Below, piece by piece: positions 19,425-58,371 of a stretch of 58,371 nucleotides of DNA. Under the pieces are notes generated by a model. It made no database searches. It saw only the letters and a list, made by a program, of their open reading frames with translations, and was not told the DNA's origin. The stretch is from Sashavirus BDX09P1. Within the stretch, counting starts at the first letter, position 1, and each line of letters starts with the position of its first letter. The position numbers were made by a program, and so were the translations under genes. The stretch lies in sequence record OZ035775.1, one strand, 5' to 3'.

Positions 19425-19454
19425 GTGGTCAAGAAAACAAGAAGGGTTGAATGT

Positions 19455-19823
19455 ATGGATCCGAACATTAGAGTTGCCACAGACGAATTCATTCGTCGCG
19501 CCTGTAAAATTCACGGTGATCGTTACGACTACTCATTCAGCATTGTTGAAGATAGTTCCAGCACAGTGGTTATTATTGACCGTGAAACTAACACAGTGTT
19601 TTTCCAGGTTGTCGCTGAACATCTGGACGGTGTTGAACCAGTAACGACTGCTGTTGAACCAGTAACGACTGCTGTTGAACCAGTAACGACTGCTGTTGAA
19701 CCGATCAAGAATCTTTCTGAGATATTCGGTAACGTTGCAAACAGCGTGTATCACCAGTGCAATTATTCATCTGAAATGTTAGAATTTAGTCATGTTGAAA
19801 CAATACGAGGACAATCCCCGTGA
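19455..19823 (+). CDS. hypothetical protein with EPVTTAV repeats
   Basis: N-terminal DEFIRRACKIHGDRYDYSFS motif shared with triple-repeat protein 28318-28959; three in-frame EPVTTAV repeats. Confidence 0.45.
   Translation: MDPNIRVATDEFIRRACKIHGDRYDYSFSIVEDSSSTVVIIDRETNTVFFQVVAEHLDGVEPVTTAVEPVTTAVEPVTTAVEPIKNLSEIFGNVANSVYHQCNYSSEMLEFSHVETIRGQSP
19632..19703 (+). repeat. 21-bp in-frame tandem repeat (about 3.4 copies)
   Basis: GTTGAACCAGTAACGACTGCT repeated head to tail. Confidence 0.8.
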
Positions 19824-44088: not shown

Positions 44089-44898
44089 TCAGTAACCGTT
44101 ACCGTTGAGAAAATTCGGGGCCGGGGTGGTCATTACCATATAACCGTTAGCGATCAGTTGTTCATCGTTCCAACCTTGCGCAATAAACTGTTCGTAAGTT
44201 GCACCACCTGCTTTTTCAGTCATCACCTTCACAGGTGCTGCCGCTGGTGTAGGCGCTGCTACAGGTGCTGCCGCTGGTGTAGGCGCTGCTACAGGTGTTA
44301 CGCCGATCGGACGTGCACCTTCAGGCATTGCAGGAGCAGCACCGAACACTGAGGCAGGAGCCGGACCAGAAATGATTTCTTCACCTGCATAAAGCAATTG
44401 CGCCATTTCCATGTTGATATACACACCAGCCTGATTACCTGTACGACCGTTTGCAACAGATGATCCGCTGATACGGTAGTAATAACCTTTTTTCGCCAGA
44501 TTTTTATCAATAACTGGTTGGTACGCTGCGTTATAAACAGGACACGCGTCAATAGCCACGTTGCGTGAGAAACCAATTACCCAGTGACCAGCATAACCAG
44601 TTTTACTCGCATGTTTCGGATCGTCACCGTTAATAATTTTCCATGCGAAAGTGGGTTGTTGTGGTTCGCCGTTCACATAGTGTGAGTTAGCTGCTCGCAT
44701 GATGGCCTGGAACACCGCACCAAGTTCACCTTGTTCTTCCCACCAGTTCGCAGCTGTTTTAGGAAATGCCAGACCAACCCACCAGTTATGTTTTTCAGGT
44801 GCTAACGGTTTATTTTCGTGGTCATGAGTGTTGATATCGAAAAAAGAACCGCCAACCAGACGACCAACCGGAGTTACAAAAGATTCTTTCTGTGCCAT
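44089..44898 (-). CDS. DUF2815-like phage protein (SSB-like partner of DUF2800)
   Basis: N-terminus MAQKESFVTPVGRLVGGSFF...; Pro/Ala repeat linker and conserved C-terminal peptide. Confidence 0.55.
   Translation of the reverse strand: MAQKESFVTPVGRLVGGSFFDINTHDHENKPLAPEKHNWWVGLAFPKTAANWWEEQGELGAVFQAIMRAANSHYVNGEPQQPTFAWKIINGDDPKHASKTGYAGHWVIGFSRNVAIDACPVYNAAYQPVIDKNLAKKGYYYRISGSSVANGRTGNQAGVYINMEMAQLLYAGEEIISGPAPASVFGAAPAMPEGARPIGVTPVAAPTPAAAPVAAPTPAAAPVKVMTEKAGGATYEQFIAQGWNDEQLIANGYMVMTTPAPNFLNGNGY
44231..44298 (-). repeat. 30-bp in-frame tandem repeat (about 2.3 copies)
   Basis: ACAGGTGCTGCCGCTGGTGTAGGCGCTGCT x2 encoding APTPAAAPVA. Confidence 0.8.
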
Positions 44899-57097: not shown

Positions 57098-57823
57098 TTA
57101 TTGACCCATCATATCTTTATACATCATCAAAACAACATCATCCGGCATATTATCTACATCGCAATGCGGGTTGTGTGACAACGCATACAGTCTGATTTTC
57201 TCCTTCAAATCGCTGACATCGACTACAGGTGGTTCCACTCGTGCTACAGGTGGTTCCACTCGTGCTACAGGTGGTTCACAAACCATCACGTTAAACGGTG
57301 TCCCGGTGCCTTCGTATTTTTCAAGCAAATCAACCATTACATTTACACATTCTGGGGTCCATCCCCGGCGCAAACCATTCTGAATCCAACTATCAGTAAT
57401 TGTGTGTTCGTTTAAATTCCTGCGTAGCACATATCTTGCACATTCAAAATTACCGCACATCGCCTCAAACCGTATCCACACGTCGTGACCGTGAACAGCT
57501 TCCAGGATCTGTGAATCAACGTATCTGACACGTTGCCAGTAGTTATTAGCAAAACGCCTGTGTGGTAATTTCTGACGCAGTTCGGTAACCGGTATTGTGC
57601 GTTTAAGAACAACTTCACCAACATCAATCACCGGATCCAGATTCGGCAACCCAAGTTTTTTCATGATGATGTTAAGCGTGGTAGCCAGTGGGTACTGCTT
57701 ACCCGCCATCCATTCGTTATAACGACCAACTGAAATTTTAACGTCGTGTTCAGCAAGATAATCAACAGCCTCGCGTAAACCACCCATCGCATCAGCAAAT
57801 TCTTTAAAAATATTCTTTTTCAT
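57098..57823 (-). CDS. putative HTH regulatory protein with EPPVARV repeats
   Basis: N-terminal region resembles a small HTH (CII/Cro-like pattern); in-frame EPPVARV x2.5; next to iteron-rich AT region. Confidence 0.4.
   Translation of the reverse strand: MKKNIFKEFADAMGGLREAVDYLAEHDVKISVGRYNEWMAGKQYPLATTLNIIMKKLGLPNLDPVIDVGEVVLKRTIPVTELRQKLPHRRFANNYWQRVRYVDSQILEAVHGHDVWIRFEAMCGNFECARYVLRRNLNEHTITDSWIQNGLRRGWTPECVNVMVDLLEKYEGTGTPFNVMVCEPPVARVEPPVARVEPPVVDVSDLKEKIRLYALSHNPHCDVDNMPDDVVLMMYKDMMGQ
57223..57280 (-). repeat. 21-bp in-frame tandem repeat (about 2.7 copies)
   Basis: CTACAGGTGGTTCCACTCGTG repeated. Confidence 0.8.
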
Positions 57824-57872
57824 ATCACCCTCCTTTTTCTTTTATTTTACCACGGGGTGAGAATTATGCAAG

Positions 57873-58001
57873 TAATCCTGTCATAGTGTTACAGCTAATC
57901 CTATGGTAGAACGACTGACTATCATAGGATTGATCGCAAACTGTTAATACTAAGATAGAACACTATGATAGTATTAGTGTTACGGTTAATCCTGTCATAG
58001 T
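57873..58001. promoter_or_regulatory. iteron / operator-like cluster
   Basis: TAATCCTGTCATAGT direct repeat at ~57873 and ~57987; palindrome AATCCTATG...CATAGGATT between; multiple CATAG/CTATG units. Confidence 0.4.
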
Positions 58002-58020
58002 ATCAAAATCATAGATTGGT

Positions 58021-58175
58021 ATAGATTTCGTCATGTTTATTTTTTAACCAACCCCTCTTTATTTTATTCTTTTTATTATTTTTTTCATAGATAACATAGA
58101 AAACATAGATATAAAGAAGAAGTAGTATAGAAAGATAGAGATAATACTAGAGTAGTGTAAGCTGCAAATAAAGGT
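58021..58175. repeat. AT-rich dispersed element, copy B
   Basis: Alignable with 19204-19335 (ATAGATTTCGTCATGTTTATTTTT-AACCAAC...ATTCTTTTTATTAT...AGTAGTATA...GCTGCAA). Confidence 0.6.
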
Positions 58176-58371
58176 AAAATAAAAGTCTGGGAGATACCTA
58201 TTGTAATCTATGTTTTCATGCAAGTATTTGAAATTGTTGTGGTTATGGGTTACGTATTTATGTATGTGATCGAAAATTAGTGCACGTTGTGTATTATCTG
58301 TAAACTTAATACTAACATTGTATTAGCTGTAAAACAGGGCGTGTGGACAACCCGTGGGTATCTGTGGGAAA

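What the first reader, a model, noticed from the sequence alone, without database searches (positions are those of the whole stretch)
19632..19703. In-frame 21-bp and 30-bp tandem repeats in three genes
Perfect short tandem repeats encode EPVTTAV x3 (19632-19703), APTPAAAPVA x2 (44231-44298) and EPPVARV x2.5 (57223-57280). All are Pro-rich linker-like units kept in frame. Such repeats can expand or contract by slippage, giving length-variable linkers.
Basis: seen in the sequence. Interest (0 to 1): 0.4.

Follow-up and report, generated by a model that had tools for sequence, protein, structure and literature searches.

The report
Length-variable repeat linkers in phage proteins
Three short in-frame DNA repeats in this E. 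coli phage encode spacer segments inside three proteins (between predicted folded domains in the two that were modelled), and their copy number changes quickly between otherwise nearly identical phages; this is a familiar kind of variation, documented here unusually cleanly.

Summary
All three repeats are real, perfect and in frame. TRF finds 21 bp x3.4 at 19631-19702, 30 bp x2.2 at 44231-44297 and 21 bp x2.6 at 57223-57277. Random sequences of the same composition give about 0.01 such arrays. The window is a 9NA/Sasha-like E. coli siphophage genome.

The host genes:
- **g1:** a small accessory protein of unknown function.
- **g2:** the gp2.5/Enc34-type single-stranded-DNA-binding protein.
- **g3:** a protein with a Cro/XRE-type helix-turn-helix domain.

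Across relatives, g1 has 1-10 units, the g2 linker spans 16-98 residues and g3 has 0-13 units, always in frame. Phages Sasha, Solent and Sergei have no substitutions in the flanking coding sequence, yet their linkers differ (58/28/38 and 96/19/68 residues). Each genome's array is internally homogenised.

AlphaFold places the g2 and g3 repeats in low-confidence segments between confident domains. g1 was not modelled, and its unit is not Pro-rich.

This is a known kind of feature, a coding minisatellite that encodes an interdomain linker. GenBank records of Sasha and Sergei already annotate the g2 and g3 arrays as tandem repeat regions. Interest is modest.

The parts
19631..19702 (+). g1 array: 21-bp unit GTTGAACCAGTAACGACTGCT x3.4, encoding VEPVTTA x3 + VE (aa 60-82 of g1)
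   Evidence: TRF; sequence; unit table
19455..19823 (+). g1 gene, 122 aa from the ATG that relatives use (GAAGGG 8 nt upstream). It is a small accessory protein of unknown function. It is present only in the E. coli-infecting clade and lies immediately upstream of, and overlaps the start of, the XkdF-like head protease gene.
   Evidence: annotation; no Pfam hit; weak phrog_4605; flank dN/dS 0.40
44230..44301 (-). g2 linker: aa 200-223, VTPVAAPTPAAAPVAAPTPAAAPV. It contains the 30-bp array (TRF 44231-44297).
   Evidence: pLDDT<50 at aa 201-218
44329..44898 (-). g2 OB-fold core (aa 1-190) of the gp2.5/Enc34/DUF2815-type ssDNA-binding and annealing protein
   Evidence: phrog_7011 E=2.6e-92; Foldseek hits 4jg2, 4klk, 1je5, 5odj/5odl at E 5e-9 to 4e-6; profile hits 4jg2/4klk; pLDDT mostly above 90
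44089..44229 (-). g2 C-terminal part: a small predicted strand-helix-helix-strand domain (aa 223-258, pLDDT 84-92), a floppy 8-residue tail ending in Tyr, and the stop codon. The tail is not acidic.
   Evidence: composition; family consensus AGGATYEQ..GWTD; no PDB sequence match
57221..57277 (-). g3 linker: aa 183-201, EPPVARV EPPVARV EPPVV (21-bp array, TRF 57223-57277)
   Evidence: pLDDT<50 at aa 185-203
57656..57823 (-). g3 N-terminal four-helix Cro/XRE-type helix-turn-helix domain (aa 1-56). This is a different allele from the one in most relatives.
57284..57598 (-). g3 conserved helical middle domain (aa 76-180), function unknown
   Evidence: AF2 pLDDT 80-93; invariant LPHRRF, YVLRR and other columns; flank dN/dS 0.10
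57098..57220 (-). g3 C-terminal two-helix segment (aa 202-241) plus the stop codon
   Evidence: AF2 (pLDDT 57-70); conserved in 9NA-type homologues that lack the repeat

Best explanation
The three arrays are coding minisatellites, that is, in-frame variable-number tandem repeats. In g2 and g3 each one encodes a low-complexity spacer between predicted folded parts of the protein; for g1 this is inferred from position only.

- **g2:** the spacer is an Ala/Pro-rich tether between the OB-fold ssDNA-binding core and a small C-terminal domain. It is the counterpart of the disordered linker of bacterial SSB.
- **g3:** the spacer joins a helix-turn-helix plus helical-domain body to a C-terminal helix pair.
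- **g1:** the spacer sits between two conserved segments of a small accessory protein.

The units are perfect 21- and 30-bp direct repeats, so replication slippage or unequal recombination adds and removes whole units. Unit lengths are multiples of three, so the reading frame survives. The result is fast and probably reversible change in linker length, with arrays repeatedly rebuilt from one unit variant.

Length within a wide range appears to be tolerated and close to neutral. The likely physical effect is a change in the reach, or effective local concentration, of the tethered domain.

**Shown:** the repeats, the frame, copy-number polymorphism, its speed relative to substitution, homogenisation within arrays, and the position between predicted domains for g2 and g3.

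**Inferred:** the mutational mechanism, physical disorder, the functional consequence, near-neutrality, and linker status for g1.
For: **The repeats are real.** They are perfect and not due to chance.

**Copy-number ladders.**
- g1: 1-10 units.
- g2: linker 16-98 aa.
- g3: 0-13 units.
- All variants are in frame.

**Speed.** Flanks are identical (0/738 nt and 0/414 nt) in Sasha, Solent and Sergei, while their arrays differ several-fold.

**Homogenisation.** Each genome has its own unit variant in g3: ARV, ARA, SRV, TRV, or EAPVARV with GAG.

**Position in the protein.**
- AF2 gives pLDDT<50 at g2 aa 201-218, between an OB core (pLDDT above 90) and a C-terminal domain (84-92).
- AF2 gives pLDDT<50 at g3 aa 185-203, between two folded parts.
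- 9NA-type g3 homologues join the same two conserved segments with no repeat at all.

**Selection.** Folded parts are under purifying selection (dN/dS 0.06 and 0.10), whereas unit variants are mostly amino-acid changes.

**Generality within the SSB family.** The same position is Ala/Pro-rich family-wide. Unrelated repeat units of period 5, 7, 8, 10 and 17 aa have arisen there independently.

**Precedent.** Bacterial SSB linkers range from 16 to 126 aa and are poorly conserved (PMC7145534).
Against: - No read-level or experimental data show ongoing slippage in one population.
- AlphaFold low confidence is not proof of disorder. Ala-Pro stretches can be extended and fairly stiff (own knowledge).
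- g1 was not modelled, and its Val/Thr-rich unit could form structure.
- Copy numbers in public short-read assemblies may be collapsed for long arrays. Many assemblies break inside the g2 array.
- Near-neutrality is only inferred from the breadth of the length distributions.
Confidence: 0.85

Rival explanations
1. Adaptive tuning knobs. Rapid linker-length change in the replication SSB and the Cro-like protein is itself selected, for example to re-match tether reach to partner proteins or hosts, or to escape host defences that sense phage SSB. In that case the arrays would behave like contingency loci.
For: - Very fast turnover on a zero-substitution background.
- Arrays persist at the same three sites across the clade.
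- Repeats have arisen independently at the same SSB position in other lineages.
- E. coli SSB linker length and composition affect cooperativity and binding thermodynamics (PMC7145534).
Against: - Length distributions are broad with no sign of a preferred value. The g2 linker spans 16-98 aa, and g3 works with 0 units in 9NA and in P0249.
- No association with host or phenotype was tested.
- High turnover is expected from perfect repeats without any selection.
Confidence: 0.12
2. DNA-level elements. The repeats would be protein-binding sites, such as origin iterons like those inside the lambda O gene, operators, or packaging signals, that merely happen to lie in coding sequence.
For: - Two arrays lie in or near replication and regulatory genes.
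- Lambda's ori iterons lie in frame in the O gene (own knowledge).
- The g2 and g3 units share the 11-mer CACCTGTAGCA, found nowhere else in the window.
Against: - Copy number ranges from 0 to 13, and the g3 array is absent from 9NA.
- The 9NA/BU9 g2 unit matches the window-type unit at only 19 of 30 bases yet encodes the same Ala/Pro-rich composition.
- The shared 11-mer is broken in the AVIO78A and 536P12 g3 units.
- Units have no internal dyad longer than 5 nt and no AT-rich flank. Flanks are 0.36-0.51 GC against 0.44 for the window.
- Arrays coincide exactly with predicted domain junctions.
Confidence: 0.03
3. Assembly or sequencing artefact. The repeats or their copy numbers would reflect mis-assembly rather than biology.
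For: Short-read assemblies do break at the g2 array. Examples are partial proteins ending at ...PIGV or starting at MTEKAGG, and phage SP069's record is split there.
Against: - The window's arrays are only 55-72 bp, well inside a read.
- The same loci carry arrays in independently sequenced phages from several countries, with clean unit ladders and genome-specific unit variants.
Confidence: 0.03

Closest known systems
Intrinsically disordered linker (IDL) of bacterial SSB (E. coli SSB: 56-residue IDL plus 9-residue acidic tip)
   Same: It is a low-complexity, Pro/Gly/Ala-rich tether between an OB-fold DNA-binding core and a C-terminal interaction element. It is poorly conserved and varies widely in length between species (16-126 aa; PMC7145534). 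The g2 linker ranges from 16 to 98 aa.
   Different: - The OB core here is the T7 gp2.5/Enc34 type, not the bacterial SSB type.
- The tethered element is a small predicted folded domain rather than an acidic peptide.
- Length varies between near-identical genomes through perfect DNA repeats, not only between species.
T7 gp2.5 / Enterobacter phage Enc34 ORF6 / DUF2815 (PF10991) ssDNA-binding proteins
   Same: Same OB-fold variant by fold search, by profile and by PHROG assignment. The gene sits in a replication module next to the DNA polymerase and an exonuclease.
   Different: Those proteins end in a long, acidic, unstructured tail; in Enc34 ORF6, 16 of the last 29 residues are Asp or Glu (PMC5686142). 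Here only 2 of the last 29 are acidic. An Ala/Pro repeat linker plus a mini-domain takes the tail's place.
'Direct tandem repeat region' features in the GenBank records of Salmonella phages Sasha (KX987158) and Sergei (KY002061)
   Same: These are orthologous arrays in the orthologous genes: CPTSasha_63 and CPTSergei_73 correspond to g2, and CPTSasha_81 and CPTSergei_91 to g3. The g2 and g3 arrays were therefore already recorded by annotators.
   Different: Those records only mark the repeats. The g1 array is not annotated in any record seen, because the gene is absent from the Salmonella phages. I found no accessible text that compares copy numbers; the 2019 J Virol paper on 9NA-like phages is not held.
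Ala/Pro-rich interdomain linkers of 2-oxo-acid dehydrogenase E2 chains, and the Pro-rich spacer of TonB (own knowledge, not tested here)
   Same: Similar composition (Ala-Pro-rich, or Glu-Pro/X-Pro periodic) and the same presumed role as an extended spacer between domains.
   Different: There is no homology. Those linkers are not known to me as perfect DNA repeats that vary between close isolates.
Coding variable-number tandem repeats and contingency loci of bacteria (own knowledge)
   Same: Perfect head-to-tail repeats inside genes, fast gain and loss of units, and within-array homogenisation.
   Different: Classic contingency loci switch genes on and off through frame shifts. Here every unit is a multiple of three, so only length changes.

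Membership tests
Coding minisatellite / in-frame VNTR | Head-to-tail near-identical copies beyond chance | tested here: met
   TRF gives 100% matches at all three loci. The window has 3 such arrays against a mean of 0.01 in 100 random sequences.
Coding minisatellite / in-frame VNTR | Unit length a multiple of 3, inside an ORF, with the frame kept in all variants | tested here: met
   Units are 21, 30 and 21 bp. ORFs are intact in all 6-13 genomes compared and in the database proteins.
Coding minisatellite / in-frame VNTR | Copy-number polymorphism among close relatives | tested here: met
   g1 has 1-10 units, the g2 linker is 16-98 aa and g3 has 0-13 units. The arrays differ even where flanks have 0 substitutions.
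Coding minisatellite / in-frame VNTR | Length heterogeneity within one population (ongoing instability) | not testable with these tools
   No sequencing reads are available.
Disordered interdomain linker | Lies between independently folded domains and is itself predicted to be unstructured | tested here: met
   g2 has pLDDT<50 at aa 201-218 between core and C-domain. g3 has pLDDT<50 at aa 185-203.
Disordered interdomain linker | Physical disorder or flexibility | not testable with these tools
   This needs NMR, SAXS or proteolysis.
T7 gp2.5 / Enc34 / DUF2815-type SSB (g2) | OB-fold core of the gp2.5 type | tested here: met
   Foldseek hits 4jg2, 4klk, 1je5 and 5odj/5odl at E 5e-9 to 4e-6. phrog_7011 at E=2.6e-92. 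The family profile hits 4jg2 at 2e-11.
T7 gp2.5 / Enc34 / DUF2815-type SSB (g2) | Pfam PF10991 match above the curated threshold | tested here: not met
   hmmscan of the window protein finds no Pfam family at E<=1. Some homologues carry precomputed PF10991 hits.
T7 gp2.5 / Enc34 / DUF2815-type SSB (g2) | Long, acidic, unstructured C-terminal tail | tested here: not met
   Only 2 of the last 29 residues are acidic, against 16 of 29 in Enc34 ORF6 (PMC5686142). A folded mini-domain is predicted instead.
T7 gp2.5 / Enc34 / DUF2815-type SSB (g2) | Binds ssDNA and promotes annealing | not testable with these tools
   This needs a biochemical assay.
Cro/CI/XRE helix-turn-helix regulators (g3) | Four- to five-helix HTH fold | tested here: met
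Cro/CI/XRE helix-turn-helix regulators (g3) | Sequence-family match (Pfam HTH models) | tested here: not met
   No Pfam hit. The only family match is phrog_25538, of unknown function.
Cro/CI/XRE helix-turn-helix regulators (g3) | Cognate operator sites near the gene | tested here: inconclusive
   The AT-rich region upstream (57824-58371) holds several palindromes and repeated 15-26 nt motifs. Relatives with the other HTH allele carry a different palindrome, ATGCAC-GTT-GTGCAT. Binding is untested.
DUF723 (PF05265) (g1) | Pfam model match | tested here: not met
   hmmscan finds no PF05265 hit for the window protein (E<=1) or for four homologues (E<=10). The label comes from the PDP46 and MAG annotations and from precomputed hits.
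Replication-origin iterons or other DNA-level repeats (rival) | Unit DNA sequence and copy number conserved among relatives, internal dyad symmetry, adjacent AT-rich region | tested here: not met
   - Copy number ranges from 0 to 13.
- The 9NA g2 unit matches at 19 of 30 bases.
- The longest internal dyad is 5 nt or less.
- Flanks are 0.36-0.51 GC against a window mean of 0.44.

The most novel reading that the evidence does not exclude
The arrays could be evolvability devices rather than neutral stutter. Under this reading, fast and reversible length change is selected at three sites: the tether of the replication SSB, the tether of a Cro-like DNA-binding protein, and a spacer in a head-module accessory protein. 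It would let the phage retune domain reach to new hosts or partners, or escape host defences that recognise phage SSB. The phage's own annealing protein (g2) might also promote the repeat recombination that reshapes its own gene.
Probability: 0.1. Interest if true: 0.6.

Novelty: new member of a known kind. Interest (0 to 1): 0.3.

Why it matters
**A natural experiment.** These phages supply a ready-made linker-length series in a replication SSB (16-98 residues) and in a helix-turn-helix protein (0-13 units), on almost isogenic backgrounds. That could be used to ask how tether length affects SSB function and regulator reach.

**Practical points.**
- The three loci are good high-resolution typing markers for 9NA/Sasha-like phages.
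- They are a known weak point for short-read assembly, where contigs break inside the g2 array.
- They should be checked when such phages are used for biocontrol or therapy and genome stability has to be shown.

None of this overturns current understanding.

Tried and rejected
- **Literature.** The key paper on 9NA-like phage genomics (J Virol 2019, PMC6819911) is not held. I therefore could not check whether it discusses these repeats. The 'tandem repeat' mentions in PMC8273493 concern other phages.
- **Pfam.** No hit for any of the three proteins. The DUF723 label for g1 could not be reproduced.
- **g2 C-terminal mini-domain.** A sequence search against the PDB gave only noise. Profile hits to IcmE/DotG had no stretch passing on its own; I attribute them, without testing, to the low-complexity Pro/Ala part of the profile.
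- **g3 fold searches.** The viral structure library returned only the SP069 homologue and weak HTH hits. The middle domain of g3 remains unassigned.
- **Iteron or operator reading.** Considered and rejected.
- **Shared 11-mer.** The 11-mer common to the g2 and g3 units might point to common origin, but it also spells Pro-Val-Ala with the same codons and is not conserved in relatives. I left it as a curiosity.
- **Technical failures.** One script error and one script timeout. Both were re-run successfully.

Full report
**Observation.** Tandem Repeats Finder reports three arrays that stand far above everything else in the window, each with 100% matches and no indels:
- 19631-19702, period 21, 3.4 copies.
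- 44231-44297, period 30, 2.2 copies.
- 57223-57277, period 21, 2.6 copies.

VEPVTTA x3 lies in a + strand ORF. AAPTPAAAPV x2 and EPPVARV x2.6 lie in two - strand ORFs. An independent count of perfect tandem arrays (period 12-60, at least two copies) finds exactly these three. In 100 first-order Markov random sequences the mean was 0.01.

**Context.** The window is a whole genome of a 9NA/Sasha-like siphophage of E. coli. A 5-kb segment is 97% identical to Escherichia phages PJ16, KarinMuster (Bas82), PDP46, AVIO78A and Sashavirus 536P12. It is about 94% identical to Salmonella phages Sasha, Sergei and Solent, and more distantly related to 9NA and a group of Klebsiella phages.

**The three host genes.**
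- **g1 (19455-19823, 122 aa).** A small protein found only in the E. coli-infecting clade. It abuts the XkdF-like head protease gene. It has no Pfam hit, so the DUF723 label used in some annotations could not be reproduced.
- **g2 (44089-44898, 269 aa).** The gp2.5-like ssDNA-binding and annealing protein (phrog_7011, E=2.6e-92). It lies between an exonuclease and the DNA polymerase.
- **g3 (57098-57823, 241 aa).** The last gene of the map, in a PHROG of unknown function.

**Copy number across relatives.** I extracted the three genes from up to 13 phage genomes and split the arrays into codon-phased units.
- **g1:** 3 units in the window, PDP46 and 536P12; 2 in PJ16, Bas82 and AVIO78A.
- **g2**, length of the Ala/Pro stretch between fixed anchors:

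| Phage | Linker (aa) |
|---|---|
| 536P12 | 22 |
| window | 24 |
| Solent | 28 |
| Sergei | 38 |
| PJ16 | 42 |
| BU9 | 50 |
| Sasha | 58 |
| KPN_H2 | 60 |
| Carvaje | 66 |
| 9NA | 70 |
| PDP46 | 86 |
| Bas82 | 98 |
| AVIO78A | 98 |

- **g3**, number of units:

| Phage | Units |
|---|---|
| 9NA | 0 |
| window | 2 |
| Solent | 2 |
| Bas82 | 3 |
| 536P12 | 3 |
| AVIO78A | 4 |
| PJ16 | 5 |
| PDP46 | 5 |
| Sergei | 9 |
| Sasha | 13 |

The large protein collection widens this picture.
- The 98 g1 clusters form a length ladder of 108+7n residues. One cluster has 1 unit, about 40 have 2, about 36 have 3, 11 have 4, 6 have 5, 3 have 6, one has 8 and one has 10.
- g3 members have 0, 1, 2, 3, 4, 5 or 7 units.
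- Further g2 members have linkers of 16 to 88 residues.

Every variant is in frame. In the relatives scanned over about 40 kb, the same three loci are the only strong arrays.

**Tempo and mode.** Sasha, Solent and Sergei have no nucleotide differences in 738 bp of g2 outside the array, or in 414 bp of g3 outside the array. Even so, their linkers are 58/28/38 and 96/19/68 residues. Unit gain and loss is therefore much faster than point substitution.

Arrays are homogenised within genomes but differ between them. For g3 the units are EPPVARV (window), EPPVARA (Sasha, Sergei, Solent), EPPVSRV (AVIO78A), EPPVTRV (536P12) and EAPVARV with a GAG codon (PDP46). That is the signature of arrays repeatedly collapsing and re-expanding from one unit.

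The folded parts are under purifying selection, with pooled dN/dS of 0.06 for g2, 0.10 for g3 and 0.40 for g1. Differences between unit variants are mostly amino-acid changes. The exact sequence of the spacer therefore seems to matter little.

**Position in the proteins.**
- **g2.** With a 119-sequence alignment, AlphaFold models g2 at mean pLDDT 87.
  - An OB-fold core covers aa 1-190, mostly above 90.
  - A segment below 50 at aa 201-218 coincides with the repeat (linker aa 200-223).
  - A small strand-helix-helix-strand domain follows at aa 223-258 (84-92), then a floppy tail.
  - Foldseek matches the core to DUF2815 proteins 4jg2 and 4klk, T7 gp2.5 (1je5) and the Enc34 SSB (5odj/5odl) at E 5e-9 to 4e-6. 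The family profile hits 4jg2 and 4klk by sequence.
- **g3.** With 10 sequences and mean pLDDT 78, g3 has these parts:
  - a four-helix N-terminal domain at aa 1-56;
  - a helical middle domain at aa 76-180;
  - a segment below 50 at aa 185-203, which is the repeat;
  - two C-terminal helices.
  - In 9NA-type homologues the same two conserved flanks...GTGTPF... and ...IREQVRQF..., are joined directly with no repeat. The array therefore sits at a junction that tolerates zero spacer.
- **g1.** Its repeat lies between two conserved segments, but calling it a linker is inference. Its unit is Val/Thr-rich, not Pro-rich.

**The SSB family more widely.** Among 120 homologues, the region after the core is Ala/Pro-rich almost everywhere. 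Different perfect repeats have arisen there independently:
- a 17-residue unit x4;
- QQQAPVT x5;
- AAPPPPVT x4;
- AAPVA x7;
- two different 10-residue units in the 9NA-like phages.

This parallels the disordered linker of bacterial SSB, which is poorly conserved and ranges from 16 to 126 residues, and whose length and composition influence cooperativity and binding thermodynamics (PMC7145534).

There is one real difference from the structurally characterised T7-type SSBs. Those end in a long acidic unstructured tail; in Enc34 ORF6, 16 of the last 29 residues are acidic (PMC5686142). Here only 2 of the last 29 are acidic, and a small folded domain is predicted instead. That domain has no recognisable relative by sequence in the PDB.

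**Mechanism.** What is shown:
- perfect direct repeats;
- unit sizes that preserve the frame;
- fast copy-number change;
- within-array homogenisation;
- location at predicted disordered junctions in g2 and g3.

What is inferred:
- Units are gained and lost by slipped-strand mispairing or unequal recombination. These are the established routes for short tandem repeats (own knowledge).
- The segments act as spacers whose length sets the reach of the tethered domain.
- Length is close to neutral over a wide range.

**Rivals.**
- **DNA-level role (iterons, operators, packaging signals).** The evidence is against it.
  - Copy number runs from 0 to 13.
  - The 9NA-type g2 unit matches the window-type unit at only 19 of 30 bases while encoding the same composition.
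  - Units lack dyad symmetry and AT-rich flanks.
  - The only shared motif, the 11-mer CACCTGTAGCA in the g2 and g3 units, is broken in some relatives.
- **Assembly artefact.** It is excluded for the window's 55-72 bp arrays. It remains a fair caveat for long arrays, because many short-read assemblies break inside the g2 array.
- **Adaptive 'tuning knob' reading.** It cannot be excluded and nothing here supports it directly.

**Novelty and verdict.**
- The refinements are the identity of the genes, the actual ranges and tempo of variation, and the weaker case for g1.
- In-frame minisatellites encoding interdomain linkers are a well-known kind of feature.
- The g2 and g3 arrays are already marked as 'direct tandem repeat region' in the GenBank records of Sasha and Sergei.
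- I found no accessible comparison of copy numbers; the main genomics paper is not held.
- I rate this a new member of a known kind, of modest interest. Its value is mainly as a clean natural linker-length series and as a typing and assembly caveat.

Noticed in passing
window 57613-57823 (g3 aa 1-70): The first 211 nt of g3, which encode the helix-turn-helix domain, match none of the phage records that match the rest of the gene. The window carries a different N-terminal allele (MKKNIFKEFADA...) from most relatives (MKKNLLDELIDL...). Both alleles occur in public data. This looks like a swap of DNA-binding specificity.
   Followed up: partly
window 57824-58371: The AT-rich region upstream of g3 holds several palindromes and repeated 15-26 nt motifs. 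Examples are TAATACTAAGATAG/CTATGATAGTATTA, AATCCTATGGTAG/CTATCATAGGATT, and TAATCCTGTCATAGT twice. Relatives with the other g3 allele carry repeats of a different palindrome, ATGCAC-GTT-GTGCAT (L001 40563-40622, L003 39440-39564). These may be allele-specific operators; binding is untested.
   Followed up: partly
window 44257-44297 and 57242-57273: The g2 and g3 repeat units share the 11-mer CACCTGTAGCA (Pro-Val-Ala codons). It occurs 4 times in the window, only inside these two arrays, against 0.05 expected. It could be coincidence of codon choice or a trace of common origin. It is not conserved in all relatives.
   Followed up: partly
window 44089-44229 (g2 C-terminus): This gp2.5-type SSB lacks the acidic C-terminal tail typical of the family. 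It has a predicted ~36-residue strand-helix-helix-strand mini-domain with the family-conserved motif AGGATYEQ..GWTD, and it ends in ...NGNGY. No relative was found in the PDB by sequence.
   Followed up: partly
g2 homologues in public assemblies (P0262, P0264, P0265, P0273-P0282; phage SP069 records KC139649/KC139650): Many Salmonella and E. coli short-read assemblies, and the SP069 phage record, break exactly at the g2 array. This leaves partial proteins that end at ...PIGV or start at MTEKAGG. Copy numbers of long arrays in such assemblies are unreliable.
   Followed up: partly
window 19425-19823 versus relatives: g1 is absent from the Salmonella and Klebsiella relatives. Their similarity to the window begins exactly at the start of the next gene, at 19820. 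g1 therefore appears to be an accessory gene specific to the E. coli clade, sitting between a leftward gene block and the head genes.
   Followed up: partly
L002 32126-32177 (Sasha) and L007 26904-26955 (PDP46): A weak 27-bp x1.9 repeat (76% matches) lies in the gene two upstream of the SSB gene in Sasha and PDP46. TRF does not report it at the corresponding place in the window.
   Followed up: no
alignment A2, profile positions 255-295: The SSB family profile gives whole-sequence E=3e-7 to Legionella IcmE/DotG residues 285-325, but no stretch passes on its own. The likely cause is the low-complexity Pro/Ala-rich part of the profile.
   Followed up: no
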